A stretch of 64,000 nucleotides of DNA from a virus (taxonomy: Duplodnaviria; Heunggongvirae; Uroviricota; Caudoviricetes), in the IMG/VR virus record IMGVR_UViG_3300032116_000094, positions 1 through 64,000 of that record; one strand, given 5' to 3'. Of the stretch, positions 9,825 to 52,511 are shown in pieces; the stretch's first letter is position 1; the number at the start of each line of letters is the position of its first letter. Below the pieces are notes generated by a model. That model did no database searches, was not told where the DNA came from, and saw only the letters and a program-made list of their open reading frames with translations. Made by a program: the position numbers and the translations under genes.

Positions 9825-9870
9825 TTTGTACATATCCCCCCCATTTTAGCTCCCCCAATTTATTTTTAAT

Positions 9871-9904: not shown

Positions 9905-9913
9905 TTCTTTACT

Positions 9914-10836: not shown

Positions 10837-10873
10837 TATGAAGATGTTATATTTATTAAGATAAAAGATTATT

Positions 10874-11179: not shown

Positions 11180-11221
11180 AGATATATTTCAGGCTATTGA
11201 ATCTTAAAAACATTTGCCAAT

Positions 11222-11521: not shown

Positions 11522-11530
11522 AATAGTATT

Positions 11531-11830: not shown

Positions 11831-11856
11831 TATGGCCCAATCAAAGTATATGTTAT

Positions 11857-12156: not shown

Positions 12157-12182
12157 TATGGCCCAATCAAAGTATATGTTAT

Positions 12183-12467
12183 ATGAGCGAAAATAAGTTA
12201 TATCTTAAAACCAGGAGATGGTTTTATAACCAATTTGATAAGTTGAAAGAATCTGAGGACACTGAAAAAATAGTGCTTAGGGATAAGCATGAGTTTTCTG
12301 TGGTCCGTATATATAAATCGGAAAAAGAAGCATTTTATTTCGTATTCTTCAGGTATGATCTGGTTAGTGTTATCCCTATTAAAAATGCAGATTTTGAAAT
12401 GTTTCTGAGAGAATGGATCGAAGATAAATTCAAAATAAAACTAACTAAAATGCACGTCAAAATCTAA
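12183..12467 (+). CDS. Array-A paralog, divergent subfamily
   Basis: ORF. ..DFEMFLREWIEDKFKIKL. Confidence 0.6.
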   Translation: MSENKLYLKTRRWFYNQFDKLKESEDTEKIVLRDKHEFSVVRIYKSEKEAFYFVFFRYDLVSVIPIKNADFEMFLREWIEDKFKIKLTKMHVKI

Positions 12468-12480
12468 GAAACACAGGATC

Positions 12481-12780
12481 ATGAAGAATGAAAAATCATA
12501 TATTAAAATCAGGAAATGGTTTTATCACAAGTTTGATATGCTGACGTTTTATACTACCAATGAAAAAATAAATCTTTTTGATATAGAAGAAGATTCTGTT
12601 ATACGAGTATATTTGATAAACAATGAAGGTGAAATCTTTTATTATGAAGATTTTATGCTTGATCTAGTTAAAATTATACCAATAAGTATCAACGACTTCG
12701 AACTGTTTTTAACATCCTGGATCGAAGATAAATTTAAAATAAAAGTAATTAAGATACACGCAAGTTCAATATCACAATAG
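12481..12780 (+). CDS. Array-A paralog, divergent subfamily
   Basis: ORF. ..DFELFLTSWIEDKFKIKV. Confidence 0.6.
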   Translation: MKNEKSYIKIRKWFYHKFDMLTFYTTNEKINLFDIEEDSVIRVYLINNEGEIFYYEDFMLDLVKIIPISINDFELFLTSWIEDKFKIKVIKIHASSISQ

Positions 12781-12819
12781 TCAAAAAATTTTTAAAATTA
12801 AACTAACAAATTAATTATT

Positions 12820-13125
12820 ATGGACAACCATAAATCATATCGTAGAACCATGAACTGGTTCTATTCCAGGTTTGACAAGCTGATTGTCATTGAAAACAAA
12901 AATAATATAGAGCTTTACAATAAAGATGATCGTGCCTCTATCGTCCGCATTCACTGGACCGGTGTTGTGTATTACTATAAAAGATTCAGAGATGATCTTA
13001 CTAAGATAGTCCCAGTATCAAAAGAAGACTTTGAAATGATTTTTAGTTCCTGGATTGAGAATAAATTTGAAATTCATATAAATACTATTAAAGAGGTTAC
13101 ATATAAACTTCATACACCAAAGTAA
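12820..13125 (+). CDS. Array-A paralog, divergent subfamily (last unit)
   Basis: ORF. ..DFEMIFSSWIENKFEIHI. Confidence 0.6.
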   Translation: MDNHKSYRRTMNWFYSRFDKLIVIENKNNIELYNKDDRASIVRIHWTGVVYYYKRFRDDLTKIVPVSKEDFEMIFSSWIENKFEIHINTIKEVTYKLHTPK

Positions 13126-13432: not shown

Positions 13433-13563
13433 CAGTCAGGGCAGGACTCGAACCTGCAACCATGTATGTGTAGCTCTACAAGCTGACCCGGTTTTCATCC
13501 ATCATAGAGCTACTACTCTTTTTCGGATTTAGACCGGGGCGTTACCAATTCCGCCACCTGACT
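13433..13563 (-). tRNA. Class-II tRNA (Ser-TGA-like) with ~33-nt insertion in the anticodon loop, plus an oversized variable region
   Basis: Minus strand AGTCAGG-TG-GCGGAATTGGTAACGCC-CCGGT-CT[AAATCC..GATGGA]TGAAA-ACCGG ... GCAGGTTCGAGTCCTGC-CCTGACT-G. The 7-bp acceptor pairs. The T-arm is GGTTCGAGTCC. Anticodon stem CCGGT/ACCGG is as in bacterial tRNA-Ser. No CCA encoded. Confidence 0.45.
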
Positions 13564-34871: not shown

Positions 34872-35696
34872 TTAAACTTGGCTAGATTCCTTAAGCATTT
34901 CGTAAGCCCTAGCTAACCTTGTTAAACCAATACCTCCACCAAATCGCTCAAAGAAATTTAAACTAAGAAATTCTTCCAATTCTTTCTCAACTCGTTCTCT
35001 ACCAAATAATTCAAAAAGTTTATTGGCATATGCCCCATCCATTATGTTATAGAACATTTGCCTCATATAATTAACGTCACAAGATCTTTCCGCAGATCCA
35101 ATTGTTTCCTGCCCATAAAGGATAATATCTATCTTATTAAATAGATCATTTCCAGCATGTTTCATATTCCAAAATGGAGATGTCCTGTATGGAAATTTCT
35201 CTAAAGATATAACATTACCAAGTTCTTTCCACATCCTAGATTCGTGCTCATCCTCTAAAATAGGAACCCCTCCGTATTCATCACACATATCGTCATAGTT
35301 TCTACTAACCGGGCTAGAAAATCCTAGATAATCTAGAAGTTCAGCCTCCAATTTTTTAAGCTCAGCAAATCCCCCCTTTGACTCAAATTCAAACATAGGG
35401 AAAATTTTCTCATGTCTTCCAGGGATCGGGTTTTTCTCATTACGGTATGATGTGGAGACGCAAAACACACCTGGCCAATCAGGGTTCTTCAGAAGCTCAT
35501 ATTCAAGCCACATTTGACCCGTTTGTGGTAGAGGCCATACTACTCCATCGTATTCAAAAGTCGCCACAGAGTGGGGATTTTCGCACGCAGCGAGTATTGA
35601 TAATCTGGACTGAGTAGGTACCTCAATCCATCCTTTAGATAAAAAGAAAGATCTCATTTTAGAGACTAGTTCGTGATATGTTTTTGTTTGTTTCAT
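34872..35696 (-). CDS. AsnA-like / truncated class-II aminoacyl-tRNA-synthetase catalytic core (AsnRS/AspRS-type), no anticodon-binding domain
   Basis: ORF 274 aa. Motif 2-like YRNEKNPIPGRHEKIFPMFEFE. ETIGSAER. Motif 3-like FERFGGGIGLTRLARAYE. Confidence 0.55.
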   Translation of the reverse strand: MKQTKTYHELVSKMRSFFLSKGWIEVPTQSRLSILAACENPHSVATFEYDGVVWPLPQTGQMWLEYELLKNPDWPGVFCVSTSYRNEKNPIPGRHEKIFPMFEFESKGGFAELKKLEAELLDYLGFSSPVSRNYDDMCDEYGGVPILEDEHESRMWKELGNVISLEKFPYRTSPFWNMKHAGNDLFNKIDIILYGQETIGSAERSCDVNYMRQMFYNIMDGAYANKLFELFGRERVEKELEEFLSLNFFERFGGGIGLTRLARAYEMLKESSQV

Positions 35697-35742
35697 TTTA
35701 TTTATTTAGATCAAAAATAATAAATAAATGATGGTTTGTAAA

Positions 35743-36669
35743 TCATAACTGCTCAATTAATTCAGGTTTCCCAACAACTAGACTATATCTATTATGAAGA
35801 TTAGAATTGGTTGCTACTGTAATATACATTAAAACTAAGGTCATATATATATGTTCAACTAACTCATTTTTAGTTTTCTTAAAATATTCATAATTAAATA
35901 TTTCCGGCCTATTTGTTAATAGGTTATATTTAACATTTATTTCTGAATTTTTAACTACCATATCTGTTATCACAATATATTTAGTTAGATTTCTATTACT
36001 TGAAACATCAATAAACTTCTTGCTCATAACATGTTTTTTAAATTGTTCAAAAAAATACATAGTTAAATTATGTATTATCACATATATTTCTGTTGTTCTT
36101 TGTTTTAACGCAAATTCTAAATCAAATGTAGTTGCCTGTCTGATAATATGTTTTAATTGTTTACCATAAAAAGATTTCGACATAATATTAGGATCACTAT
36201 GATATTTGTTAATATTTTGAATAATATTAACATTATTGTAGGCAATATAATTTATTTCCCCCCCAATTTCACGGCATACGTATTTTTTATCCCTACCTTT
36301 ATACCACTCACCAACTACAATTCCCGAAATAAATGGAAATCCACACAAACCTAATAATAAAGATTCATTAGTACTTACAGGAAAAACTAATTTAGACCCA
36401 AAAATATCTTTTTCTGTTATTTTTGAACGAGGAATACCTTTCACTCTGGATAATTCTGTTAAATAACGATATCTGAGCGTGAAAATAAATGGAGGTAAAT
36501 CAAATATCTTATCCAAAGAAAATGTCTCAACTAACTTTATAAAAGTTCTATAAGGATAACTACTCATGTCAATCATAGCTAAAGAAAATTCTTCTGAGCT
36601 TAATTCAGAGAATCTCTTTTCTATTAGAGAATATACTTTAAATTCTAAATCAGAAATTTTAGGCTTCAT
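35743..36669 (-). CDS. Array-B paralog (308 aa)
   Basis: ORF. Shared family motifs (..Y.YL.LLS.KLN.P...IT..D.., W...G.GYKYV, NG.FYY). Confidence 0.6.
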   Translation of the reverse strand: MKPKISDLEFKVYSLIEKRFSELSSEEFSLAMIDMSSYPYRTFIKLVETFSLDKIFDLPPFIFTLRYRYLTELSRVKGIPRSKITEKDIFGSKLVFPVSTNESLLLGLCGFPFISGIVVGEWYKGRDKKYVCREIGGEINYIAYNNVNIIQNINKYHSDPNIMSKSFYGKQLKHIIRQATTFDLEFALKQRTTEIYVIIHNLTMYFFEQFKKHVMSKKFIDVSSNRNLTKYIVITDMVVKNSEINVKYNLLTNRPEIFNYEYFKKTKNELVEHIYMTLVLMYITVATNSNLHNRYSLVVGKPELIEQL

Positions 36670-36685
36670 TAGTTTGTTGTGGTTT

Positions 36686-37582
36686 TTATATATAATTGAC
36701 TGCGCATCGATAATTGTAATTCAAAAACTCAGTTTTCTTTATAAGGAATTCTTTGTATTGGCGATCAAGATATTGTTGACCAGAATATAAGCTAATTTTA
36801 TCCATAAATTTATTTATTTTACGGCAATAAAAATTTACTGTTCTATCTTCATGATTTACAACAACATTATCTAAAATAATACTAAAAACGTCTTTTAATT
36901 TAATATGAACTAAACGTGCATCATCACTTTTTATGTAAGTTTTAAAGTCATCAGTGATTGTTCTTAATATAACAGCTACAATATAATCGAAGTCAGCATC
37001 CGAACTTTGGTTTAAAACTATATTAAGATCATTCTTTTTGCATTTTGCAATAATACACTGTTTATTATTCATTACATCATATATATTATAGTATTTAGTA
37101 AAAAGATCATTTTCATGAAAAACCATGTTATTAAATGAAACTAAATTTATCATCCCCGTAGGATTTCTACCAACATATTTAAACCCATTTTTTCTATGCT
37201 CCCATTTGGAATGAAAATTATCAGACATAATAGGAAACCCAAATGCAACCAGTTCTCCTATTACCGAATAACCAACATTAATGTTAAGGACATTATTTAT
37301 TATATCATCAACGGTAATCTGACTTAGGCTTTTATTCAATTTTTCGGATAATAAAGTTAAATAATAGTATCGCATATAAAACAATTTGGTAGGATACCCT
37401 GTACTATCTTCAACATTTAAAGTCTCCATTAATTTTACAAATCTGGTATATAATTTACCTCCACTAATAAAACTAGCATATCCTGGGGCATATTTAAACA
37501 TCATTTTTTTTGGATCATACCCCATAAATTTATTAAATGTTCTATATAAATTAGGTTCAAAACTGAATATCTTTGGTTCCAT
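36686..37582 (-). CDS. Array-B paralog (298 aa)
   Basis: ORF. Family motifs. Confidence 0.6.
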   Translation of the reverse strand: MEPKIFSFEPNLYRTFNKFMGYDPKKMMFKYAPGYASFISGGKLYTRFVKLMETLNVEDSTGYPTKLFYMRYYYLTLLSEKLNKSLSQITVDDIINNVLNINVGYSVIGELVAFGFPIMSDNFHSKWEHRKNGFKYVGRNPTGMINLVSFNNMVFHENDLFTKYYNIYDVMNNKQCIIAKCKKNDLNIVLNQSSDADFDYIVAVILRTITDDFKTYIKSDDARLVHIKLKDVFSIILDNVVVNHEDRTVNFYCRKINKFMDKISLYSGQQYLDRQYKEFLIKKTEFLNYNYRCAVNYI

Positions 37583-37603
37583 ATTTTTATTTAATAATTT
37601 TTA

Positions 37604-38527
37604 CTACGTATTAAAATTTAAGTTAATATTTAAATTATATAACTCACTTAATTTTGATTTACTATAAACATAGTCAGAATATTGTTTATAAATACCATGC
37701 CACCAGGTACTCTTAATATTATCTATAAGCTGATCATCATAATCATCTGGAGCACTAACTATATTTATGTTTACTGTCATTTTTTTAGCCCTTGAATCTA
37801 CTTCAAATGTTGCATTCGCGGAATAAAAAAAATCCCACTCACGATAAAAACCCGTAACACCAAAATGATCCTTAGCATTATCACAGAAAGACTCCGTAAG
37901 GTTTTCACTAATTGCCCCAATTATATCCCGATTTTTTGTGTTTAATATAACCCTAAGATCCTCTTGTTTACAAGGAACTATACCATTAAGCCAGATAACT
38001 ACATCAAATAATTCTTCATCGTAATAAAAAATACCATTTTCAAGAATAATACCAAGTAAAATATTATCTGAAGTTCTAGCTACATATCTTTTTGATTTTA
38101 TATCCCAAGAACCGACAATACTTTTATTAGATGGAGATTTAAAAATCCATATTTTTTTTGCTGTAAAAGGAAATCCCCCCCGGATAATTCCAAACATTTC
38201 CTCAGCATAAAATGTGGGAATTTGTATTGGCTTTGCATTATAAACGTCAGACTCTGTTATTTCGTTTACAGGTTTATTTAATTTTTGTGATAGTAATTTT
38301 AAATAGATATAACGAGAAACCGCCATATTAATCGTAAAAGACTGAAATTTATAGCTAGGCATTTTTAGTTTTTCAAGACGTCTGGTCATCCTATGAATAA
38401 CAACGCCTAAACTAAAACTATCAGACATTATGTTTTGGTTAAAATCTTCTAGGTATATTTTAAGTTCTCTTTCAATCAATACTCTAAGAGCTTTCTCTAA
38501 TGGAGAAATTGTAAGCATTATTTTCAT
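37604..38527 (-). CDS. Array-B paralog (307 aa)
   Basis: ORF. Family motifs. Confidence 0.6.
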   Translation of the reverse strand: MKIMLTISPLEKALRVLIERELKIYLEDFNQNIMSDSFSLGVVIHRMTRRLEKLKMPSYKFQSFTINMAVSRYIYLKLLSQKLNKPVNEITESDVYNAKPIQIPTFYAEEMFGIIRGGFPFTAKKIWIFKSPSNKSIVGSWDIKSKRYVARTSDNILLGIILENGIFYYDEELFDVVIWLNGIVPCKQEDLRVILNTKNRDIIGAISENLTESFCDNAKDHFGVTGFYREWDFFYSANATFEVDSRAKKMTVNINIVSAPDDYDDQLIDNIKSTWWHGIYKQYSDYVYSKSKLSELYNLNINLNFNT

Positions 38528-39465
38528 ACATCAATAACCGTCTTAAAATTAAATTTATATGTACTCCATAATCTACTATCACAATCTGCGTTTAGTTTAA
38601 TTTGGGTTAGAAAATATTCAGTAATCTTATTTTCAAAATTTTTATCTTTTTTTATTTTTAAAAAGATATCTTCTAAATCAACAGTATTTTTGTTTACCTC
38701 ACGTCTAACCTTATTCTTATCTACGGATACGTGCAGTGTAATATTCAGATCTTTTAAACGAACTTTTTCTAGTGTTAAATCTAATAATATAGTTTCACCA
38801 TCAATGAAATAATAATGCTCAAAATTTTTAAGTTCAGTGTATAGAAATTTTTTAATACAATCTATAAATTTAGTTTTTACTAAACCCAAAATAGACTCAT
38901 AATTTAAATTAGGTAGTTTGCTAATTGCAGCCATATCTGAATGGCTAACAGGTATAATAAATAAAGATTTAAGTTCTATAAAAATACTTGTGTTAACTAA
39001 ACCATAGTACCCATAATGTTTTACGCCATTATAAAGATAAACGATGTCATTAGTATCAGTATCCCGAATAATATATTTATACCCATTTCCCTCGTCAACC
39101 CAATTCGATTTATATTTTTCACTTAAAAACTTAATTTTAAATTTTATTAGTTGAGCTGTCATTTCATTATCAGCGTCTATATTATATATCTCCGCATTAA
39201 TAATATCATCTATTGTTAATTTAGATATCTTTTTTTTGCGTATCTGGGATAAAACTGTTAAAGCAAAATATACTATGTAACACTTACGTGACGCGCTATT
39301 AAACTTATTTGGTATACCAAAATATTTTAATATACGAGATATATGATCATGCAACTCATCTCCAGATATAAGATCATATAATTTAGGACCACCTAAAGTA
39401 AGACCTATCTGTTTGTCTATGGTGTTAAATATAACAATATCTTGCTTGGTTAATCCTTCTAACAT
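38524..39465 (-). CDS. Array-B paralog (313 aa)
   Basis: ORF. Family motifs. 4-nt overlap with previous. Confidence 0.6.
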   Translation of the reverse strand: MLEGLTKQDIVIFNTIDKQIGLTLGGPKLYDLISGDELHDHISRILKYFGIPNKFNSASRKCYIVYFALTVLSQIRKKKISKLTIDDIINAEIYNIDADNEMTAQLIKFKIKFLSEKYKSNWVDEGNGYKYIIRDTDTNDIVYLYNGVKHYGYYGLVNTSIFIELKSLFIIPVSHSDMAAISKLPNLNYESILGLVKTKFIDCIKKFLYTELKNFEHYYFIDGETILLDLTLEKVRLKDLNITLHVSVDKNKVRREVNKNTVDLEDIFLKIKKDKNFENKITEYFLTQIKLNADCDSRLWSTYKFNFKTVIDV

Positions 39466-39493
39466 AATTTTTTAATACTATATTTATAAATAT

Positions 39494-40432
39494 CTACTCA
39501 TTGAGTAGTAGAGAAAAAACTAAAGTTCCCAAATTTAATACTTTACTTTTTGGGCTATATTTATAATAAACCTCAAAAACCAATGGCAATAGTTCATGCC
39601 TTAAATTAGTTTTAACCTCATCGTCAATCGGATCAGTTGTAAAGTGAAACTTTAAATCTTTTTTATTAAAAACTATTTTAGATAACCTAACATTAAAAGG
39701 ATAGTTTTCGAATATCAAAGCAAACCTGCGTATCTTAATAATCTTTTTGTACAATCTTTCAACTCGTTTAGCTTCAAGCTCAAGAAGCTTATTGCGCACT
39801 CCATCATAATCTAAATCAAGTTTTTCAATAACTTTCAAATCGTATGCATTCGCACTAACGTATTTTTTGCTAAATTCTGGAGAAACCTCTGATGAGGTAT
39901 AAAATTCGTTTACGTATTGTACCCCGTTAGAAAATATAGATACAAGATTAGTTCTACTATAGTAGTATAAATATTTTAACCCTTTAGATTTATCCCAGAG
40001 TCCAGATGAATCATAATGACCACGTGTAGAGCGAAAAGGAAATAAATAATACAAACAAATATTATCCATGAAACCTTCATTGATTATAATTTGTTCCGAA
40101 TTCGAGATATCAGTAAACGTCAATTCACTTCTACTTTTACCCAGCTTATATGCTATCTGTGTAGCAATAAGATACTTATAAAAGTAATAAGTTTCATAAT
40201 TACTATTCGGTTTTAACCCAAGAAACTTACTTTGCTTGTAAAAAACCACCCTAATATTATAATTTAAAGACAGAATATCTTTCGTAGTGTAAAAAAATAT
40301 ATCAAAAATTCCTGGGGGGATATCATACGGTTTAAGTCTTCTTTCCGAAAGAAATTTTTTAATATAAGCACGTAGTGATTTATCAATTAAATCAAAAGCT
40401 CTTACTTCGAAATTACTAAAATATTTGGCCAT
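39494..40432 (-). CDS. Array-B paralog (312 aa)
   Basis: ORF. Family motifs. Confidence 0.6.
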   Translation of the reverse strand: MAKYFSNFEVRAFDLIDKSLRAYIKKFLSERRLKPYDIPPGIFDIFFYTTKDILSLNYNIRVVFYKQSKFLGLKPNSNYETYYFYKYLIATQIAYKLGKSRSELTFTDISNSEQIIINEGFMDNICLYYLFPFRSTRGHYDSSGLWDKSKGLKYLYYYSRTNLVSIFSNGVQYVNEFYTSSEVSPEFSKKYVSANAYDLKVIEKLDLDYDGVRNKLLELEAKRVERLYKKIIKIRRFALIFENYPFNVRLSKIVFNKKDLKFHFTTDPIDDEVKTNLRHELLPLVFEVYYKYSPKSKVLNLGTLVFSLLLNE

Positions 40433-41346
40433 TATATATATTTTTTACCATTTATGTATATACTAGTTTCGCCAGAATCTAACAAACGGCTATGAAAGAT
40501 GAAAGCACTACGTTGTAAATTATTCATTACATGAAGAAGCGTTTTAGCCACATTATTTAATAATTCATCTGTTTTTATTTTTGATTTAAAATAAAAATTT
40601 ATATTTTCTTTTCCGGAGTAATCAATTTTAATTAGCTTGGACTGAGTTTCTGCAAGATATTTTATATATTTTCCATCTTCATGTACTTCATACATACGTT
40701 TCAATTCTTTTATACTTAATTTCTTTATTTTATCTATATAACCACTATAATCTAAATCATAGGTTTCTATAACTTCAAGATCACGGATTGAACAAGGTCT
40801 AGCAAAATCACTAAAAATACTTGGGATAGTGAAATTATATGTATCATAATTATAGTAGAACTCCCCATTTGTATATATAAACCAAAGTCCTGAACTATAA
40901 ACTTTATACTTAAGACCATTCTTGTTAACCCAAACAGCTTTCATATCATCCCCAGTGAAAGGTATCAAATTAGCAATTGCTGCTGTCGCCCACTCGTTAT
41001 CTTTTACTAAGATATCTTTCGCATTTATAATATCCTTTTGTGTCAAATAATTTATGTGCTTATCTAACTTTGCCGCTATTTCTGAGCAAAGTATATATTT
41101 GACATATAAAACGGTTAAATCACCTTGTATTCCAAAAAATTTAGCTTTTTTAATGAAAATTTCTTCCGATTTTTGAGCAAAACCTGCTGATAGGTAAATA
41201 TATCGATATAAATCGAAACTAATTTTCAGTTTTCTAACTGGATTATAATACTGAAAAGTCTTCGCAGCTTCATATAATGACTCTTCAACTTTTTTTAAAA
41301 AAAATATTTCACGACTATTAAATACTATGCCCATAATTATAAACAT
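40432..41346 (-). CDS. Array-B paralog (304 aa; start may be internal)
   Basis: ORF. Family motifs. 5' end overlaps the upstream paralog by ~29 nt. Confidence 0.55.
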   Translation of the reverse strand: MFIIMGIVFNSREIFFLKKVEESLYEAAKTFQYYNPVRKLKISFDLYRYIYLSAGFAQKSEEIFIKKAKFFGIQGDLTVLYVKYILCSEIAAKLDKHINYLTQKDIINAKDILVKDNEWATAAIANLIPFTGDDMKAVWVNKNGLKYKVYSSGLWFIYTNGEFYYNYDTYNFTIPSIFSDFARPCSIRDLEVIETYDLDYSGYIDKIKKLSIKELKRMYEVHEDGKYIKYLAETQSKLIKIDYSGKENINFYFKSKIKTDELLNNVAKTLLHVMNNLQRSAFIFHSRLLDSGETSIYINGKKYI

Positions 41347-42262
41347 TAATACCGTTTATGTTTAACCGAACCCTAGAGTATGAAAAGTTAGATAAGTTAC
41401 CTATGTTATTATATGACATATGAATAAAAGTTGCAATGCCGTCTCCAAGTTTATGTATACTTTTTTCCGATAAATTAGAAATATCACGGTTAAGTGGTGT
41501 TTTAAGATCAACGATTAATATTTTATCTAATATTTTAAAATCATCCAAAACCAACCCTTCATCTTTAAAATTAGCATCAAATTTCAGTTGCTCTGTCAAA
41601 AATTTTTTTAATTTTTTAAAATTTAATTTTGTAAGATAATCAACTAACTCTTCATGGCTAAAATCATGATTCATAATTATATTTAATTCACGAGCAGTCG
41701 ATTTTTCTTTATTTGGTAAATATGTCCCAATATATGGGGGACTTGAATGATTAAATACGTTATCATTATAATAATATACCCCATTAGTATAAACTAGAGC
41801 TAAATTTTGATTTTTTTTAACAACATATTTTAAGCCATTAACTTCAACCCAATTTGAGATAAATGATTTTGATCTGCTTGGCACCAATAACGATATTGCC
41901 GGTAAAAAATCAGGCCTTGATACAAGGATAGGTGTAAAATTAATTACATCTGACATTGTTAGATCTTTAACCGGTTTATTATTTCTTGCAGCAATCTCTG
42001 AATACAAAAGATATTTGACAATCTCTCGTCGTGGATTAACATTATAATAACCCAATTTATTTAATAACTTCATAAGTTCTTTAAATGAAAATTGACTAAA
42101 ATCAGGTAAATAAATATAATCATCATATATTTTTGTGAGGAAACTAGGATTTATATACTTCTCCGGCGGGCTATCACCAAAATATTTGCGATAAATATGA
42201 TTAATATATTTATTAATTATACCATAAGAAATAACATCTCTATTATTTAATAATCTTTCCAC
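41318..42262 (-). CDS. Array-B paralog (314 aa)
   Basis: ORF. Family motifs. Confidence 0.6.
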   Translation of the reverse strand: MERLLNNRDVISYGIINKYINHIYRKYFGDSPPEKYINPSFLTKIYDDYIYLPDFSQFSFKELMKLLNKLGYYNVNPRREIVKYLLYSEIAARNNKPVKDLTMSDVINFTPILVSRPDFLPAISLLVPSRSKSFISNWVEVNGLKYVVKKNQNLALVYTNGVYYYNDNVFNHSSPPYIGTYLPNKEKSTARELNIIMNHDFSHEELVDYLTKLNFKKLKKFLTEQLKFDANFKDEGLVLDDFKILDKILIVDLKTPLNRDISNLSEKSIHKLGDGIATFIHMSYNNIGNLSNFSYSRVRLNINGINVYNYGHSI

Positions 42263-42325
42263 AACCCGCTTTTAATTTTTAAATGTTTATGTATATACTT
42301 ATCAAGATACTCATATAGTGCGGTT

Positions 42326-43255
42326 TCACTTTTTGTTATTAGATTTTCCATATATTTTAATTTCTACGTTTATTTCATATTTATTCGGAATATCAAGAGC
42401 ATATTCATATGGCTCCCCCATTATAGATTTTAATAATCTATCTTTCACTACATCCTCAAAATAAGCTTTAGATCCTGAAGTTATTGAATTTTTCTCAGAA
42501 GTAATTTTAAAATTAAAGCCATTTTTTGTTTTTTTAACTTCATTGACTAAAAATTTTTCAGAAACATGGCCAGCTATATTAACGGTTATAGACCCAAAGT
42601 ATACCTGGAAATATTCATATACTTTTTTATGAACAAATTTTTTAACTTGTTCCAAAGTATAGTCATTTTCGGCAATATAATTTATTAAACTTGGTCCAAC
42701 AGAAATAAGGTTAAATTTTTTTGCAATATTATCAAAAGGAATATTTGGTGCAAAATAATAGTATTCTCCATTTGAATATACAAATGATGCCTGATCTTCG
42801 ATAGAATTGTTATAATAAACATAATTATTGCCTTTATCCTTAATCCATTTGGATGCTCCAACAGCTCCTTGAGCTGTTTTAAATGGAATTTTAGAAATTA
42901 AAAGAGCCGGAATAAATGAAACTACAGTTTTTTGTTGCGGCAGTTTCATTAAATCATTAATATCTATTTCTGAATAATTTTTACCAAATAAATTTTTTAT
43001 CGTTGAAAAATGTATGTATCTACCAAAATAATAATTAAACATCATCCCTGCTGTAGATACCCCCAATCTAGATAAAACAGATTTAAACGTTTTCATAATA
43101 AATTCTCTATTCACAATGTTATTAACATATGCACTAGCCATATCACCAATAAATTCGTCAGCCATAGATGGAGCATATAACATAAATTTTTGATAAATTA
43201 ACCTATCAGCCGCACTAAAAAGTGTTATATCAAATTTAGATAAAACTCTACTCAT
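42326..43255 (-). CDS. Array-B paralog (309 aa)
   Basis: ORF. Family motifs. Confidence 0.6.
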   Translation of the reverse strand: MSRVLSKFDITLFSAADRLIYQKFMLYAPSMADEFIGDMASAYVNNIVNREFIMKTFKSVLSRLGVSTAGMMFNYYFGRYIHFSTIKNLFGKNYSEIDINDLMKLPQQKTVVSFIPALLISKIPFKTAQGAVGASKWIKDKGNNYVYYNNSIEDQASFVYSNGEYYYFAPNIPFDNIAKKFNLISVGPSLINYIAENDYTLEQVKKFVHKKVYEYFQVYFGSITVNIAGHVSEKFLVNEVKKTKNGFNFKITSEKNSITSGSKAYFEDVVKDRLLKSIMGEPYEYALDIPNKYEINVEIKIYGKSNNKK

Positions 43256-43256
43256 A

Positions 43257-44156
43257 TTACTCTACTTCAATTATAAAATTTAATTTTGATATATCTATCA
43301 AATTACGATAAATTCTTATTATGTAAGAATTAATAAGAGCAACTTTTATCGCTCCGCCGTTTATTAGTTCTTCATATAAACTGTTAGTAAGATATTGGCC
43401 TATAACTTTAAACTTAAATTTAAATGTCCTCTTAGAGAAAGATACGCCAATAATTTTTAAATCCACATTTTTTTCAGAAAGAGTTCTCGCTGTCAATAAT
43501 AAATCGATATATGTTTTAGCTTTTCGACCCATACTAATTATTGCTGCTTTTTCGATATCTGCTGAACGATTATCATATATAATCGACATCTCAGGATCAT
43601 TCACTAAACGGATGTCTGGCCCAAGATTTGATGTGTCAAATTCTTGCCAGTCAGGAAAAGCTATTTTATTCCTATAAAGAATACCTCCAGAATAAATCCA
43701 AGAAATAATCCGGCTCCCATTTATATCAGTAATTACAACATATTTTTGTCCTTTAAAATTTACCCATTTACCTATAGATTTAAGTGTAAATGGTACTTTA
43801 AAAAAAATCGCAGCAGAAACTGCTGACTGATTATGCATAAAACCAGGACCACGTATATGACTTTCCATAAAATCTTCTTGAGTTAAAGATTTACGGTTTT
43901 TATTATGTTTATAACAAACATGTGAGCTAAAAATATATTTAAAAAACATAAATCCAAAGTTATCTCTTTGATAACCAAAAAAAGGTATTTTTTTTAAAAA
44001 AGCATTTTTTATCTCATCATGATATTTGTTATACATAGAAAGCATATCTTTCTGCTGGTCATTTTGAAAGACAATATTAGATAATACATTTTCACTAATG
44101 TATTTATCTATGCTTTCAAATGCAACTATTTCCCTTTTTGTGAAAAATTCTGGCAT
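43257..44156 (-). CDS. Array-B paralog (299 aa)
   Basis: ORF. Family motifs. Confidence 0.6.
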   Translation of the reverse strand: MPEFFTKREIVAFESIDKYISENVLSNIVFQNDQQKDMLSMYNKYHDEIKNAFLKKIPFFGYQRDNFGFMFFKYIFSSHVCYKHNKNRKSLTQEDFMESHIRGPGFMHNQSAVSAAIFFKVPFTLKSIGKWVNFKGQKYVVITDINGSRIISWIYSGGILYRNKIAFPDWQEFDTSNLGPDIRLVNDPEMSIIYDNRSADIEKAAIISMGRKAKTYIDLLLTARTLSEKNVDLKIIGVSFSKRTFKFKFKVIGQYLTNSLYEELINGGAIKVALINSYIIRIYRNLIDISKLNFIIEVE

Positions 44157-44167
44157 AAAAATATTGA

Positions 44168-45127
44168 TTAGAATTTAATATTTATATCTGACAAATCTAT
44201 AGAATCCGCACTAAAAACACTTGTATTTAAATCATACCCATGTTTATCAAATTGAATTAAAAAATACACCTTATCATGCACCCTATTTTTAATAGCAATT
44301 TTTTCATCTAGGCTAAGATCCTTAGGGTTAATTTTTGAGTTGTTTTCAGCATCTATTATATTGATTATTTTTATATCAAAAATAATTTTTTCATTTTCAT
44401 TTCTTATACTAGTAAATTTAAAGTAAATATCCGTATCTTCATCTGGTGGGGCTGAAATATAATATCTGTTTTGCTGATCATCCCCTAACTTAAACCCTTT
44501 AGTAAAATCAACAGCAAGTTGATCGTATATGGCTTTTTTAAATGAATTATCTTTGTCAATTTTACTATTAATAACGGTCTCTAACTCAAATAACGTAACA
44601 TGACGAGTTTCGTCAGTTATTCCTTTCGGTAACTTTATATTACGGCCAAAAGTATTTACCGTGTTGTATTTTAACTTATATTTCTCATTATTTACATAAG
44701 CAAAAAAAGGCACCACATCACTAAACCTTTTTTCATAACATACATATTTAAGCCCAGTATCTGATTGATTAATCCAGCGGCTTATTGTAGAAGCGTCTAC
44801 ACAATCATACTCTAAAAAATTTAGAATAAATGCATTTTGTAACTCGCGATTTCTAATTTTAAATTTTTGACCAATCAAATCTTTAAAATCAAGATCAATT
44901 AATTTTTTATTTCTATTTTTTGCTATTATATTATAACACAAATATTTAATACCATAATAGTCGTCAGAATTAGGGTACAAAATCCCGAAATATCTTAAAT
45001 ATTTGCGAACGAATAATATCATTCCAAAATAATTTTCATTAGACACTGAAAACAGATCCTTGTTTTTTAATTTTTTATCTAAATAACTAAATAATTTAAT
45101 TTCGAAGTCCGATACTAACTTAATCAT
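44168..45127 (-). CDS. Array-B paralog (319 aa, most divergent)
   Basis: ORF. Weaker family similarity. Confidence 0.5.
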   Translation of the reverse strand: MIKLVSDFEIKLFSYLDKKLKNKDLFSVSNENYFGMILFVRKYLRYFGILYPNSDDYYGIKYLCYNIIAKNRNKKLIDLDFKDLIGQKFKIRNRELQNAFILNFLEYDCVDASTISRWINQSDTGLKYVCYEKRFSDVVPFFAYVNNEKYKLKYNTVNTFGRNIKLPKGITDETRHVTLFELETVINSKIDKDNSFKKAIYDQLAVDFTKGFKLGDDQQNRYYISAPPDEDTDIYFKFTSIRNENEKIIFDIKIINIIDAENNSKINPKDLSLDEKIAIKNRVHDKVYFLIQFDKHGYDLNTSVFSADSIDLSDINIKF

Positions 45128-48764: not shown

Positions 48765-49352
48765 CTAAATTTTTAACCCAGGAATAAATCTTGCTGTTAT
48801 ATGATCTTTAAAAGACGACCAGCTTTCAAATTTAACTCTAACACCTTTTTCTTGTACATATTTTTCAATACAATATCGGAAAAATTTATCTCTTTTATTT
48901 ATTGCTTCTTTATAGTCATTTTCAGTATATGGTGATAATGAATTTTTAAACATAAATTTTATGGCTTTTAAAAATTCTTTATCCCAAATAAATAAAGGCT
49001 TATAAATAATTGATTTAATACAAATAAAAGATTTTAAATTTTGATATGTTTTAATAACTGAATAACGACCCATAAGGTAATCTAAAAGCCAAATTATATT
49101 AGACGCTAATTTGAAAGGATGATTGTTTTTTGTTAATTTATATTTTCTACCAACACTTCTTAAGTCAACTAGTACGTCATATGTTAACTCTAAACGATTA
49201 GAATCATCTTCAACCTCAATAAATAATACATCTATTATATACTCAAACCCATCGACAGAAAAGGTTGAATAAACTCTATTATCATCAGCTAAATAAGTAC
49301 TATAATTTGACGGCTGAGAAAATGTCTCATATATCAATTGCCTCTTTCTCAT
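48765..49352 (-). CDS. Hypothetical protein (195 aa)
   Basis: ORF. Confidence 0.5.
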   Translation of the reverse strand: MRKRQLIYETFSQPSNYSTYLADDNRVYSTFSVDGFEYIIDVLFIEVEDDSNRLELTYDVLVDLRSVGRKYKLTKNNHPFKLASNIIWLLDYLMGRYSVIKTYQNLKSFICIKSIIYKPLFIWDKEFLKAIKFMFKNSLSPYTENDYKEAINKRDKFFRYCIEKYVQEKGVRVKFESWSSFKDHITARFIPGLKI

Positions 49353-49650
49353 ATTTATATAAATACTCTAAATTACGCAAATATTCTTCAATATTTGATA
49401 AAGTGCTTTCTAATCGATTACCCTTTAGAAAAGTAAATCCTAACCTTGATTTACAAATCAATATATTTGATCCATCTGAGAAGTTAATGAAATTAGAACC
49501 TCGATTTATAACATAAATCTTGCCTGATTTTCCGACATAAAAATCATCTACTTTGAATCCGGAGATTACCAATAATTGTGCTTTAGTTCTGAAATCCATT
49601 TTTTTAATTTTAAATGTTACAAAAGAAATGACCAGCAGAGTGCCGGTCAT
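49327..49650 (-). CDS. Hypothetical protein (107 aa)
   Basis: ORF. 26-nt overlap with previous. Confidence 0.45.
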   Translation of the reverse strand: MTGTLLVISFVTFKIKKMDFRTKAQLLVISGFKVDDFYVGKSGKIYVINRGSNFINFSDGSNILICKSRLGFTFLKGNRLESTLSNIEEYLRNLEYLYKYEKEAIDI

Positions 49651-49699
49651 TATAACTAAGCCACAAATTTATGGCAATTTTCTAAAATGAGGTAATAAA

Positions 49700-50540
49700 A
49701 AATAAAAAGCTGAGATTACACTTTTTAACAGTTGCCTTTATAAGGATTATTGGTTCCCTTAATATCCACTAACATCTTTTGGATGGTAGCAACCAATGCC
49801 GACTTTTATGTGAGTCACACATTCTTGACGCTACTCTCTCTCTTACTAATCTATTCTCTTCAATCCGGCAAGACTGACTAAGCTTTCGAGGGCCTAGAGA
49901 TATTTTGTAAGAATACATAACAACTTGCGGTCATTATATGCCACGAACTGCTCGTGACTATGTAGGCATTTCTTTTCGTAGCGTCCGGTAGACACTTTTG
50001 CTATAATTATTCAGTAGTTATTCATTCTAAACATAAATAATGAACTTTTTTAGTTAAGTTGTGGATAAAATCAAGTTGCGGTCTACCGTCAAAGCTATCT
50101 AACCTTTTGAGTTAAATAATACTTTACAACTCGATATGATGTCCCCATCATCATGCTTCAAGACATCTCTTCGATACAGACTGGTAATCTGTAAGGAGCG
50201 TAATACCAGCACCACCTGAAATACTACATTACCTTTCGGTTTTAAGACACCTATTACATTGGATACCGCAATAATTAGACTGGATATTCCTAATCTCTTG
50301 CAAGAACCCTATGAGTTAATCTTATTGGTCTTCCGACCTCAACCCCGCAATCCACATTTACGGGATTATTACTCCATTTCGCCTACACCGTCGGCCTCAA
50401 CTACTGAGGAATAATAATATCTCACTTGTGTGCTCAAGCTCGGTAACAAGCCGCAGTAGTATGTTTTTAGCATACTAACCACTTTATCCTGCTTTCGCAG
50501 TTTATTTAATGACCACACACGGCCAATATCTTCTATCAAA
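49700..50540. other. ORF-free, GC-elevated ~0.85-kb block (candidate structured ncRNA or decayed gene)
   Basis: No ORF >=60 aa in any frame across ~840 nt in an otherwise gene-dense region. Composition visibly GC-richer than surroundings. Directly abuts the 3' end of tRNA-Met. Confidence 0.3.
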
Positions 50541-50551
50541 GAACTAATTTG

Positions 50552-50623
50552 TGGCGGAGCCTGGACTCGAACCAGGACCTTTAGGTTATGAGCCTAATGA
50601 AGTAACCCTTTTTCCACTCCGCA
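50552..50623 (-). tRNA. tRNA-Met (anticodon CAT; initiator/elongator/Ile2 not distinguishable)
   Basis: Minus strand TGCGGAG-T-G-GAAAAAGGGTTACTTCA-TTAGG-CTCATAA-CCTAA-AGGT-CCTGGTTCGAGTCCAGG-CTCCGCC-A. Clean anticodon stem-loop with CAT. T-arm. Acceptor pairs 2-7. 1:72 mismatch. No CCA. Confidence 0.6.
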
Positions 50624-50899
50624 ATATAACGAACAATAAATATCAATATTTATCAGATTAGTCAAGTAGTTTTTAAGAAAAATTTACAACAACATGATAT
50701 TTATTCAAGATAAACCAAAACCAGGAAAATCTTTTACTTTGTAACATTTCTTCTATAACAGGTTGTAATTCACGATCACTACTAATAACAAGTTGTTTTT
50801 TTGGTATACAATTATCTAAATAATTTCCCAAAGTGTCAACATCTTCTCTATCATTTATTTTACTTATAAAACCCAGTAAAAATTGTAAATTTCATATGT

Positions 50900-51314: not shown

Positions 51315-52511
51315 TTATGCAAATGAATTTGCAAGATCTAATGATGTTCTAGTTGGTTCTTGAGCAGGTAATGCCAATTTATATGCTATATTACCTGAAA
51401 CTCCATTTGCCCCCCAAACATAAACGTTAGCTTTTGGTGTTGTGTCTCCTGCTGTTATAATATACCTATCATTAATTCCAAACCATTTGATAATTCTAGG
51501 ATTGGTGCCTGGAAGAGTTGTTGTAAGAGTTATTTCTGTACCGAAACCATAATCAGCATTATTTGAACCAGTCCAATTATAAATTCTAAAAACTGGTGGT
51601 GAATTAAATGCTAACGCCACATACTTCTGATCTGAACTGAAAGCTGCTGATACAGATGTTATAAATGTGGTTGGATTTATATATCTTGTACCAACACCAT
51701 TACCTGTCCAAGGGAAAATACACACAGTTGCAACAGGAGTGTTTGTTGTTGTTGTGGAAGCTATTAACATATCACCTTTAGGTGAAAATTTAACATCTCT
51801 AAAATCACCACCTGAAGTATCTATCACTATTTTTGTACCATAAGCCAAAGGAGATCCTGAAACAGGGTATATATTTAATGCCCCATCGTTTGTTGCTGAT
51901 GTGGCCCCTATAGCTAAATAATTACTATCTGGATGCCAACCGCAACAAAGGCAAAATGTCGCACTTGTTGGGAATGACCCTGGATTTGAAAGTTTTGTAC
52001 CTAACGGAGGATTTGATGTAGAACCTGTTACATTATATGATGCAAAGCAATTACTATCAGCAATAGGAATTGTTAGAACATTACCATCCGGGCTAAACCT
52101 GAGTTTATTAACAGTACTTGTGATTACTGTTGTGATATCTGATGGATTAGTTAATAGTGTTCCAAGTGGGGACGTCCCTCCTGTTAATGAATACATATTT
52201 AGGCGTGGTGATGAAAGCCCGCCTAACGCCAAAATACTATTTGATGGATGAAAATCAATTCCTTGAGTATAATTAATATTGAACGAACCTGGCACAGCTA
52301 TTCTTGTACTAAAACCAAATGTTCCGGTTTGGCCCGTCATATTATATAAGTTAAACCCTTCCCCCACTGTAGTATCATTGTTCGCCCAACAAATATAGGC
52401 GGGAGGATTTTGAACATTCGCCCCACCCAAATATTCACTACGCTCTCTAGTAACAGAATTAACTGTTGTTATAGCTGTGAAAAAAACTCCACCGATTTTA
52501 CTTATTGTCAT
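51315..52511 (-). CDS. G/T/S/N-rich beta-propeller-like repeat protein (PD40/YVTN-like repeats)
   Basis: ORF 398 aa. Recurring FSPDGNVL, FHPSNSILA, WHPDSNYLA, FSPKGDMLIA, FSSDQKYVALA blocks. Structural or receptor-binding candidate. Confidence 0.5.
   Translation of the reverse strand: MTISKIGGVFFTAITTVNSVTRERSEYLGGANVQNPPAYICWANNDTTVGEGFNLYNMTGQTGTFGFSTRIAVPGSFNINYTQGIDFHPSNSILALGGLSSPRLNMYSLTGGTSPLGTLLTNPSDITTVITSTVNKLRFSPDGNVLTIPIADSNCFASYNVTGSTSNPPLGTKLSNPGSFPTSATFCLCCGWHPDSNYLAIGATSATNDGALNIYPVSGSPLAYGTKIVIDTSGGDFRDVKFSPKGDMLIASTTTTNTPVATVCIFPWTGNGVGTRYINPTTFITSVSAAFSSDQKYVALAFNSPPVFRIYNWTGSNNADYGFGTEITLTTTLPGTNPRIIKWFGINDRYIITAGDTTPKANVYVWGANGVSGNIAYKLALPAQEPTRTSLDLANSFA

What the first reader, a model, noticed from the sequence alone, without database searches (positions are those of the whole stretch)
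49700..50623. ORF-free GC-elevated 0.85 kb abutting tRNA-Met: candidate ncRNA or island boundary
This is the only long stretch in the window with no ORF of 60 codons or more in any frame, and it is conspicuously less AT-rich. It touches the 3' end of tRNA-Met (50552-50623). tRNA 3' ends are classic integration sites, and integrases decay there. Alternatively, the composition and lack of ORFs fit a structured RNA. I saw no RNase P, tmRNA or SRP hallmark by eye.
Basis: partly seen in the sequence, partly recalled or inferred. Interest (0 to 1): 0.55.

Follow-up and report, generated by a model that had tools for sequence, protein, structure and literature searches.

The report
Phage GOLLD RNA beside initiator tRNA
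The gene-free, GC-richer stretch is a full-length copy of GOLLD, a known giant (~820 nt) structured non-coding RNA of phages, sitting 25 bases downstream of an initiator-type tRNA-Met; it is an ordinary member of a known family whose function is still unknown, not an integration scar.

Summary
Window 49651-50899 is by far the longest stretch without an ORF of 60 codons or more (1,249 nt; the next is 337 nt). It has 38-39% GC against 29.8% for the window.

The cause is a known RNA gene on the minus strand. Rfam's GOLLD model (RF02032) matches full length at 50134..49707 (231.5 bits, gathering score 150). The 390 nt upstream (50526..50135) are the GOLLD 5' domain. The whole 820 nt aligns end to end with GOLLD env-38, the RNA whose cryo-EM structure is a 14-mer nanocage. 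In an alignment of 89 non-redundant phage relatives, the 5' domain forms 99 consensus pairs, 81 of them with compensatory changes.

Residues that make the inter-chain contacts of the env-38 cage are largely conserved here. A tRNA(CAU) with a 1:72 mismatch, the initiator type, lies 25 nt upstream on the same strand, as it does for env-38. A terminator-like hairpin follows the RNA.

I found no integrase fragment and no repeat of the tRNA 3' end in the window. The context is an uncultured, probably jumbo, freshwater phage.

One point may be new. In these phages the tRNA next to GOLLD is mostly the initiator-type tRNA-Met (28 of the 31 adjacent CAT tRNAs). Novelty is low.

The parts
50811..50839 (-). 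Sigma-70-like promoter candidate (TTGACA-17-GATAAT) about 190 nt upstream of the tRNA. Weak evidence; inferred start of the tRNA-GOLLD transcription unit.
   Evidence: 11 of 12 consensus positions match. However, the region holds 10 promoter-like sites against 8.8 expected from shuffles, so this site is not significant by itself. The host's promoter type is unknown.
50551..50623 (-). tRNA(CAU) of the initiator type: U1 x C72 mismatch, discriminator A73, anticodon stem UUAGG/CCUAA with two G-C pairs next to the loop, no encoded CCA.
   Evidence: ARAGORN; Rfam tRNA 54.8 bits; acceptor-stem register and 1:72 analysis.
50527..50550 (-). Short spacer (about 24-25 nt) between the tRNA 3' end and the first nucleotide that aligns with GOLLD env-38.
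   Evidence: MAFFT alignment with env-38. The nhmmer hit starts at 50529. This is the shortest tRNA-to-GOLLD distance among the 20 loci with an upstream tRNA-Met.
50135..50526 (-). GOLLD 5' domain (env-38 type; the 'cap' domain of the cage). It is not covered by the Rfam model.
   Evidence: It aligns with the 5' region of env-38. In the 89-sequence alignment A1, RNAalifold predicts 99 pairs, 81 of them with compensatory changes. 96.1% of cells are paired against 78.4% in shuffles, and the covariation score is 0.570 against 0.220 shuffled and 0.08-0.12 when the partners are slid. The window itself forms 93 of the 99 pairs.
49707..50134 (-). GOLLD 3' domain (the universally conserved half). It includes the A/U-rich variable linker at about 50070..50003, which holds no embedded tRNA.
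   Evidence: Rfam RF02032: 231.5 bits against a gathering score of 150, E = 2.3e-64, model positions 1-416 of 416, not truncated. No tRNA is called inside it.
49627..49651 (-). Intrinsic-terminator-like hairpin (11-bp stem, 5 G-C pairs, then TCTTTTGT) 56 nt after the GOLLD 3' end. Inferred end of the transcript.
   Evidence: 3 terminator-like sites in 1.8 kb against 0.5 expected from shuffles. This one is the strongest and is on the right strand.

Best explanation
Window 50526..49707 (minus strand) encodes a full-length, two-domain GOLLD RNA of about 820 nt. It is of the same subtype as GOLLD env-38 and is carried by an uncultured, probably jumbo, freshwater phage. This identity is shown.

The rest is inferred. 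The RNA is probably transcribed together with the initiator-type tRNA(CAU) that ends 25 nt upstream. The transcript would start somewhere in the 276-nt intergenic region upstream of the tRNA and end at the hairpin at 49651..49627. Cleavage at the tRNA 3' end, which has no encoded CCA, would release the GOLLD RNA. By homology with env-38, the RNA then folds into a 5' 'cap' domain and a 3' 'ring' domain and assembles with copies of itself, through kissing loops and A-minor contacts, into a closed RNA-only cage. Env-38 forms 14 copies with D7 symmetry; the copy number here is not known. The A/U-rich linker would point into the interior.

What the cage does is unknown for the whole family. Published facts are that a Lactobacillus brevis prophage GOLLD accumulates during lytic growth and is dispensable for phage production in the laboratory. 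Published proposals are encapsulation or storage of tRNAs, ribosomes or other cargo.
For: Shown:
- Rfam GOLLD matches full length at 231.5 bits, E = 2.3e-64.
- The RNA aligns end to end with env-38 at 63% identity, including the 5' domain (env-38 sequence from PMC12286853 Suppl. Table 4).
- 121 full-length relatives were found in IMG/VR loci, forming 89 clusters at 95% identity. Their lengths are 770-867 nt (median 819); the window hit spans 822 nt.
- Covariation in the 5' domain is strong, and the window forms 93 of 99 consensus pairs.
- The MFE z-score is -3.8.
- An identical GOLLD sequence and identical neighbouring genes occur in four other metagenome assemblies, L012-L015. No gene is called in the gap in those whose contigs extend across it.

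Support for cage assembly:
- Residues that form inter-chain bridges in the env-38 cryo-EM structure (Suppl. Table 2) were mapped onto the window.
- B1 donors A34/A35, B2 G140/G141/A145/C146, B3, B5, B6 donors, B9 G-C and B10 donors are identical in the window and near-invariant across the 89 relatives.
- B7 changes A547-U617 to C50000-G49928, a compensatory change. Across the 89 the pair is C-G in 56, G-C in 27 and A-U in 5.
- The B8 loop is UCGAA, which contains the palindrome UCGA, instead of CGCAA. 19 of the 89 share this form.
- B4 keeps 3 of its 5 Watson-Crick pairs.

Support for the transcription unit:
- The tRNA is on the same strand with a 25-nt gap.
- A terminator-like hairpin lies downstream.
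- The same order, tRNA-Met then GOLLD, is found in the 635-kb phage LR745206.1, in env-38 and in 20 of 83 relatives.
Against: - There are no expression data for this locus, so the transcript ends and the processing are inferred.
- The promoter candidate is not statistically distinguishable from background.
- My copy of env-38 came from a PDF-to-text conversion and lacks about 17 scattered nucleotides. Residue mapping therefore used local offsets. 11 of 140 listed residues did not match, and two adjacent pairs of residues mapped to one column.
- B4 is weaker here than in env-38, and some receptor residues differ (for example U603->G and A682->U). The stoichiometry could therefore differ; other GOLLDs form 10- or 12-mers (PMC12990946).
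- The function of the family is unknown.
Confidence: 0.93

Rival explanations
1. tRNA-linked integration site: the stretch is the decayed end of an integrated element whose integrase has eroded next to the tRNA-Met 3' end.
For: Only the general rule that tRNA 3' ends are integration sites, plus the lack of ORFs.
Against: - The gap ORFs have no Pfam hit, integrase or otherwise, at E <= 1.
- There is no second copy of the tRNA 3' 22-mer in the window at 3 or fewer mismatches.
- The stretch is fully accounted for by a GOLLD RNA.
- Genes on both sides are phage-like and syntenic in independent assemblies.
- The tRNA-then-GOLLD order recurs in unrelated phages.
Confidence: 0.01
2. Frameshifted pseudogene of a protein-coding gene.
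For: Absence of long ORFs.
Against: - There is no protein-family similarity in any small ORF.
- Conservation among 89 relatives follows base pairing, with compensatory changes in 81 of 99 pairs, not codon structure.
- The Rfam E-value is 2.3e-64.
Confidence: 0.01
3. A GOLLD-derived relic that is no longer functional or no longer assembles.
For: - The window's GOLLD is a singleton even at 75% identity clustering.
- Its B4 kissing loop keeps only 3 of 5 pairs, and some A-minor receptor residues differ.
- Its Rfam score (231 bits) is lower than those of the relatives scanned in L001-L011 (269-318 bits).
Against: - 93 of 99 5'-domain pairs are intact, against a median of 96% among relatives.
- The CM alignment is full length.
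- Nearly all invariant contact residues are kept.
- The sequence is identical in four other assemblies from different samples, so it sits in a circulating phage.
- The deviating B4 and B8 forms are shared by many relatives: about half for B4, and 19 of 89 for B8.
Confidence: 0.04
4. A different large phage RNA (ROOL, tmRNA, group I/II intron, RNase P) or a cis-regulatory leader of the downstream gene.
For: ROOL and tmRNA also sit near phage tRNA genes. tmRNA lies upstream of tRNA-Met and GOLLD in L004 and L009.
Against: The Rfam scan of the whole window at gathering thresholds gives only GOLLD and two tRNA matches. A terminator-like hairpin separates the RNA from the next gene.
Confidence: 0.01

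Closest known systems
GOLLD env-38 (marine metagenome, JCVI_SCAF_1096627009515; cryo-EM structure PDB 9MEE; Kretsch et al., Nature 2025, PMC12286853)
   Same: - Two-domain architecture: 5' about 390-420 nt, 3' about 410-430 nt.
- Alignable end to end at 63% identity.
- Lies downstream of a Met-tRNA.
- Most residues of inter-chain bridges B1-B3, B5-B7, B9 and B10 are conserved or compensated.
   Different: - The sequence is diverged.
- The B4 kissing loop keeps 3 instead of 5 Watson-Crick pairs.
- The L21a loop is UCGAA (palindrome UCGA) instead of CGCAA.
- The variable linker is about 68 nt here; the disordered segment in env-38 is 42 nt.
- The source is a freshwater phage at 30% GC.
- Assembly has not been tested here.
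GOLLD of the uncultured 634,780-bp phage LR745206.1 (locus L001)
   Same: - The only DNA-level hit for the GOLLD region itself in INPHARED (70% identity over the 5' domain); the only other hit covers just the tRNA-Met.
- Same order, tRNA-Met(CAT) then GOLLD; Rfam 287 bits.
- Same UCGAA form of the L21a loop.
   Different: - 84-nt rather than 21-nt spacing (distance from the tRNA 3' end to the start of the nhmmer hit).
- An extra insertion in the 5' domain.
- A tRNA-Pro lies 190 nt downstream.
- The flanking genes share no detectable DNA similarity.
Streptococcus agalactiae GOLLD (about 700 nt; dodecamer PDB 9L0R; 3' domain decamer 9LMF), as summarised in PMC12990946
   Same: Same family and the same conserved 3' domain. 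It also forms a homo-oligomeric cage.
   Different: According to the review, it lacks P9, P11a-c and P21b and so forms 12-mers. The window RNA aligns along the whole of env-38, so it appears to belong to the longer type. I had no Sag sequence for a direct comparison.
Mycobacterial GOLLD RNAs inside tRNA arrays (loci L214, L225, L238; PMC6582537)
   Same: Rfam GOLLD 3' domain (197-221 bits), within or next to tRNA genes.
   Different: - A tRNA is embedded in the linker (His in L225, Gln in L238).
- The neighbouring tRNAs are Phe and Asn, not Met.
- nhmmer with the env-38-type profile matches only their 3' half.
- The window RNA has no embedded tRNA.
ROOL RNA (phage/prophage, near tRNA islands, octameric or hexameric nanocage)
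   Same: Works alike in what is known: a large ornate phage RNA, often near tRNAs, that forms an RNA-only cage.
   Different: Unrelated sequence and fold. There is no ROOL match in the window.

Membership tests
GOLLD RNA (Rfam RF02032) | Score at or above the curated gathering threshold of the family covariance model, over the whole model | tested here: met
   231.5 bits against a gathering score of 150; model positions 1-416 of 416; E = 2.3e-64; not truncated.
GOLLD RNA (Rfam RF02032) | Conserved 3' domain, including the long-range pseudoknot and the conserved motifs AGCAAAAGU, GUGGAUA...GGGAA...AAUAAUCC and GUGUAAUCUCAGC | tested here: met
   The CM alignment shows all helices aligned, with only a few non-canonical pairs flagged. 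The motifs can be read directly in the sequence.
GOLLD RNA, env-38 type | A structured 5' domain of about 400 nt, homologous to P1-P13 of env-38 | tested here: met
   Aligned with env-38. 99 consensus pairs, 81 with compensatory changes, 96.1% of cells paired, 0 of 500 shuffles as high. The window forms 93 of 99 pairs.
GOLLD RNA | Total size of about 800 nt with no coding capacity | tested here: met
   820 nt (50526..49707). The longest overlapping ORF is 56 aa, and none has a Pfam hit. Relatives are 770-867 nt.
GOLLD RNA | Phage or prophage context, often next to tRNA genes | tested here: met
   tRNA(CAU) lies 25 nt upstream. Neighbours include NUDIX, metallophosphoesterase, ThyX, SLT, DUF3310 and DUF932. 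Relatives lie on IMG/VR contigs of up to 483 kb.
GOLLD RNA | Homo-oligomeric RNA-only cage (10-, 12- or 14-mer) held together by kissing loops and A-minor contacts | tested here: inconclusive
   Only a proxy could be tested. Most env-38 contact residues are conserved or compensated, but B4 is shorter and some receptors differ. Assembly itself needs an experiment.
GOLLD RNA | Accumulation during lytic growth | not testable with these tools
   Reported for the L. brevis prophage GOLLD (as cited in PMC7567579, and PMC12286853). There are no expression data for this phage.
Bacterial-type initiator tRNA (tRNA-fMet) | No Watson-Crick pair at 1:72 | tested here: met
   U1 x C72, with the 2-7:66-71 stem fully paired (6 of 6).
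Bacterial-type initiator tRNA (tRNA-fMet) | Three consecutive G-C pairs (29-31:39-41) in the anticodon stem | tested here: not met
   Only two are present (G30-C40 and G31-C39); position 29:41 is A-U. 26 of the 31 GOLLD-adjacent tRNAs show the same pattern. I therefore call it 'initiator-type', not a proven initiator.
Integrative element at a tRNA gene | Direct repeat of the tRNA 3' end at the far border, and an integrase gene or remnant | tested here: not met
   No second copy at 3 or fewer mismatches within 64 kb. No recombinase similarity in the gap ORFs.

The most novel reading that the evidence does not exclude
In phages carrying env-38-type GOLLD, the RNA may be specifically coupled to a phage-encoded initiator-type tRNA(CAU), forming a two-gene unit of tRNA-fMet and GOLLD.

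Evidence from the 89 non-redundant loci:
- 31 of the 43 tRNAs nearest to GOLLD carry the anticodon CAT. CAT tRNAs are only 62 of all 462 same-strand tRNAs in these loci.
- 28 of those 31 have a 1:72 mismatch, against 5 of 31 CAT tRNAs elsewhere in the same loci (odds ratio 48, p = 4e-9, not corrected for shared ancestry).
- In 15 of the 22 loci that hold exactly one tRNA, that tRNA is the GOLLD-adjacent CAT tRNA.
- The window shows the tightest version: a 21-25 nt spacer and no tRNA array within 64 kb.

This would point to a role of the cage in handling initiator tRNA or in translation initiation during infection, for example a precursor that stores or times the release of tRNA-fMet, or a link to the reported binding of ribosomes.

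I found no paper in the searchable library that links GOLLD to initiator tRNA. The original 2009 paper and the 2020 Mycobacterium paper were not available to me.
Probability: 0.2. Interest if true: 0.7.

Novelty: already known. Interest (0 to 1): 0.3.

Why it matters
For annotating this window the result matters in a simple way. The only 'empty' kilobase is not junk, a pseudogene or an island border. It is a gene for one of the largest and most elaborate bacterial or phage non-coding RNAs known.

For the field the locus adds little. GOLLD, its two-domain fold, its phage context and its position downstream of a Met-tRNA have all been published.

Two things may be useful:
- This is a divergent member of the env-38-type subfamily (a singleton at 75% identity) in a widely sampled freshwater phage. 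It keeps nearly all the cage-contact residues and so gives a natural test of which contacts are essential.
- The comparative set built here shows that the tRNA partner of this GOLLD subtype is predominantly the initiator-type tRNA(CAU). If that holds up, it gives a concrete and testable handle on the unknown function of GOLLD.

Tried and rejected
- Integration-site reading. I searched the window for a repeat of the tRNA-Met 3' 22-mer allowing up to 3 mismatches and found only the tRNA itself. I scanned all eight ORFs of 30 aa or more in the gap, plus the two flanking ORFs, against Pfam at E <= 1. There were no recombinase hits, only two sub-threshold chance hits in the flanking ORFs. Rejected.
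- Close DNA relatives among deposited phages. Megablast of 24 kb around the locus found nothing. Sensitive blastn of the locus found only the GOLLD 5' domain of LR745206.1 and a tRNA-Met in a crAss-like phage.
- PHROGs scans of 20 neighbouring proteins gave no structural hallmark genes, so the phage lineage and its host remain unknown.
- Genome-contig scan with a 3'-domain pattern of 17 specified bases. The pattern was too unspecific for 596 Gb. Of 120 loci returned, only three Mycobacterium loci are GOLLD, by nhmmer over all 120 and Rfam on a subset of 18. This was not enough to test the initiator-tRNA link across the whole family. It only shows that the link is not universal.
- Exact residue numbering of env-38. 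The supplementary PDF text lost about 17 nucleotides. I used local offsets, which left 11 of 140 listed residues unmatched, so the contact mapping is approximate.
- Papers not held: Weinberg 2009 (PMC4140389) and Morgado 2020 (PMC7549688). What I say about them comes from papers that cite them.
- The promoter call is not better than chance.

Full report
**1. The observation**

All three points hold.

- A six-frame scan shows that 49651-50899 (1,249 nt) is the longest stretch of the window not covered by any ORF of 60 aa or more. The next longest gap is 337 nt. The ORFs inside are at most 56 aa.
The window mean is 29.8%, which puts the stretch at the 98th percentile of 844-nt windows.
- The GC rise is real but not unique. 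Three other places reach the same value.
- ARAGORN and Rfam both place tRNA-Met(CAT) at 50623..50551/2 on the minus strand. Its 3' end therefore faces the stretch.

**2. What it is**

An Rfam scan of the whole window at gathering thresholds gives three matches. One is the GOLLD family (RF02032) at 50134..49707 on the minus strand. It scores 231.5 bits against a threshold of 150, E = 2.3e-64, and covers model positions 1-416 of 416.

The Rfam model describes only the universally conserved 3' half of GOLLD. The roughly 400 nt between it and the tRNA needed their own test.

- I took the sequence of GOLLD env-38, the member solved by cryo-EM, from Supplementary Table 4 of Kretsch et al. 2025 (PMC12286853).
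- Window 50526..49707 aligns with it from the first to the last nucleotide at 63% identity. The alignment includes blocks of near-identity in the 5' part, such as AAAUAAA..CGAAAG..GGAUAAAGUG, CAAGUGAGAUAU and UCGGAAGA.CAAUAAGA.UAACUCAUAG.
- The paper gives 1-420 as the 5' region and 421-833 as the 3' region of env-38. Here the two parts are 392 and 428 nt.

**3. Relatives**

- The only deposited phage with DNA similarity to the GOLLD region itself is the 634,780-bp uncultured phage LR745206.1, which matches the 5' domain at 70%. It carries a full Rfam GOLLD (287 bits) with a tRNA-Met(CAT) upstream on the same strand.
- Three short patterns taken from the 5' domain retrieved 10, 60 and more than 119 IMG/VR loci. 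All ten loci from the first pattern carry a full-length Rfam GOLLD about 200 nt downstream of the pattern.
- A profile HMM built from ten full-length seeds found 121 full-length copies in the loci held. These form 89 clusters at 95% identity, with lengths of 770-867 nt and a median of 819.
- The window copy clusters only with four copies from other metagenome assemblies of the same phage (L012-L015). It is a singleton at 75% identity.

**4. Structure of the 5' domain**

- On the 89-sequence alignment A1, RNAalifold predicts 99 pairs in 20 helices. 81 pairs show at least one double (compensatory) change.
- Counted independently, 96.1% of cells form standard pairs against 78.4% after shuffling. 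The covariation score is 0.570 against 0.220, and 0 of 500 shuffles reach the observed values.
- Sliding the partners by 1-3 columns drops pairing to 36-42% and covariation to 0.08-0.12.
- The window sequence forms 93 of the 99 pairs.
- The whole 820-nt RNA folds 3.8 sd better than dinucleotide shuffles.

The 'unassigned' half is therefore a conserved structured domain, not a spacer.

**5. How it probably works**

What is established for the family comes from papers.

- GOLLD occurs in phages and prophages, often near tRNA genes (PMC5737381; PMC12286853).
- In a Lactobacillus brevis prophage it accumulates during lytic growth but is dispensable for phage production (as cited in PMC7567579).
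- Env-38 assembles without protein into a closed 14-mer with D7 symmetry. The 5' domains form the caps, the 3' domains form the rings, and the variable linker points inside.
- Other GOLLDs form 10- or 12-mers, depending on which helices they have (PMC12990946).

I mapped the residues listed for the ten inter-chain bridges of env-38 (Suppl. Table 2) onto the window and the 89 relatives.

| Bridge | State in the window |
|---|---|
| B1 | Donors A34/A35 kept |
| B2 | G140, G141, A145 and C146 kept |
| B3 | All listed residues kept |
| B4 | Central three of five Watson-Crick pairs kept; the outer two are lost, as in about half of the relatives |
| B5 | All listed residues kept |
| B6 | Donor adenines kept |
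| B7 | A547-U617 becomes C50000-G49928, a compensatory change (C-G in 56, G-C in 27, A-U in 5 of the 89) |
| B8 | Loop is UCGAA, containing the palindrome UCGA, instead of CGCAA; 19 of 89 share this form |
| B9 | G-C kept |
| B10 | Donor adenines kept |

The residues kept in B1-B3, B5, B6, B9 and B10 are also near-invariant in the family. This supports, but does not prove, that the window RNA forms the same kind of cage.

One caveat applies. My copy of env-38 lost about 17 nucleotides in the PDF-to-text conversion. Numbering was therefore restored with local offsets, and 11 of 140 listed residues did not match.

**6. The transcription unit (inferred)**

- The tRNA and GOLLD are co-oriented and 25 nt apart.
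- The tRNA has no encoded CCA; its 3' end reads ...GCC-A-CAA.
- A strong terminator-like hairpin (11-bp stem followed by a T-run) lies 56 nt after the GOLLD 3' end. Such sites occur 3 times in this region against 0.5 expected.
- A TTGACA-17-GATAAT site lies about 190 nt upstream of the tRNA, but promoter-like sites are not enriched here (10 against 8.8 expected).

The simplest model is one transcript, tRNA then GOLLD, cut at the tRNA 3' end.

**7. The rival reading (integration site) fails**

- There is no second copy of the tRNA 3' end in 64 kb.
- No gap ORF resembles an integrase or any other protein family.
- The locus is syntenic in independent assemblies, with no gene called in the gap.
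- The surroundings are phage-like on both sides: NUDIX, metallophosphoesterase, ThyX, SLT, DUF3310 and DUF932.
- The exact 398-aa neighbouring protein occurs on contigs in the 0.2-1 Mb class. Together with the 30% GC and the kinship of the RNA with a 635-kb phage, this suggests a jumbo phage.
- There is no close deposited relative. The best ThyX match, at 58% amino-acid identity, is to a contig from a freshwater spring.

**8. The tRNA partner**

Among the 89 non-redundant loci I asked which tRNA is the nearest same-strand neighbour of GOLLD.

- Upstream within 600 nt, it is tRNA(CAT) in 20 of 83 loci, another tRNA in 8 and none in 55.
- Downstream within 200 nt, it is tRNA(CAT) in 11 of 84.
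- In total, 31 of the 43 nearest-neighbour tRNAs are CAT, although CAT tRNAs are only 62 of the 462 same-strand tRNAs in these loci.
- 28 of the 31 lack a pair at 1:72 (C x A in 15), 30 have A73 as discriminator, and 29 have at least two G-C pairs next to the anticodon loop.
- Of the 31 CAT tRNAs elsewhere in the same loci, 26 are paired at 1:72. The odds ratio is 48.5 and Fisher p = 3.8e-9.
- The window tRNA fits this pattern: U1 x C72, A73 and stem UUAGG/CCUAA.
- In 15 of the 22 loci that hold exactly one tRNA, that tRNA is the GOLLD-adjacent CAT tRNA.
- 14 of the 22 GOLLD clusters at 80% identity include such a case.

Three caveats apply.

- The sequences are related, so the p-value overstates independence.
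- The third G-C pair typical of initiators is absent from most of these tRNAs.
- In three mycobacterial GOLLD loci the neighbouring tRNAs are Phe and Asn, and a tRNA is embedded in the linker. The link is therefore, at most, a property of the phage env-38-type subfamily.

Kretsch et al. mention that env-38 lies downstream of a Met-tRNA. I found no paper in the searchable library that links GOLLD to initiator tRNA.

**9. Verdict**

The finding is real and is explained by a known RNA family. Novelty is low: this is a bona fide GOLLD of the structurally solved subtype with the same tRNA neighbour. Interest is modest, and comes mainly from the recurrent pairing with an initiator-type tRNA, which could help in approaching the unknown function of GOLLD.

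Noticed in passing
window 190-13125 (+): A head-to-tail array of 38 small paralogous genes (94-119 aa, period about 340 nt). Median pairwise identity is 39% (range 17-76%), and all start with a conserved MSKE(E/Q)YY.KIK N-terminus. The one member scanned (2251-2589) has no PHROGs hit. The array fills the first 13 kb of the window and may continue beyond its left end.
   Followed up: partly
window 34872-45127 (-): Eleven consecutive ORFs of 274-319 aa on one strand. The last ten look like very divergent paralogues (median identity about 18%, shared N-terminal pattern). The first (34872-35696) is different and matches phrog_29758 (E = 3e-98, unknown function).
   Followed up: partly
window 13433-13563 (-): A 131-nt tRNA-like element. 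Rfam's tRNA model scores 42.5 bits, with a 38-nt insertion in the anticodon loop and a 26-nt variable region, and standard ARAGORN misses it. With the intron option, ARAGORN calls tRNA-Val(AAC) with a 38-nt intron. By eye, GUAGCUCUA in the insert is complementary to UAGAGCUAC in the variable region. Its nature is unresolved.
   Followed up: partly
89 IMG/VR loci with env-38-type GOLLD (for example L004, L009, L020, L100); window 50551-50623: The tRNA next to GOLLD is predominantly an initiator-type tRNA(CAU). 28 of the 31 adjacent CAT tRNAs have a 1:72 mismatch, against 5 of 31 non-adjacent ones. This does not hold in three Mycobacterium GOLLD loci.
   Followed up: yes
L004 332-706 (+); L009 5101-5488 (-): In two phage contigs a tmRNA gene lies directly upstream of the initiator-type tRNA and GOLLD, and a tRNA array of about 15-20 genes follows downstream. 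The order is tmRNA, tRNA-fMet, GOLLD, tRNA array.
   Followed up: no
window 49327-49650 (-): The mechanical ORF starts at the ATG at 49650, inside the terminator-like hairpin after GOLLD. A more plausible start is the ATG at 49599 (AAAAAAATGGATTTC), giving about 90 aa. The gene calls in other assemblies use the 107-aa version.
   Followed up: no
window 51315-52511 (-): The 398-aa protein two genes upstream of the tRNA has faint WD40/beta-propeller signals. Its only phage hit is a 'WD40 repeat protein' at 28% identity in a freshwater-spring contig. The identical protein occurs on 19 contigs from several metagenomes, so this phage is widely sampled.
   Followed up: partly
L225 1953-2025; L238 543-615: The mycobacterial GOLLD copies carry a complete tRNA (His in L225, Gln in L238) inside the linker of the 3' domain, as described in the literature for Mycolicibacterium.
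   Followed up: no
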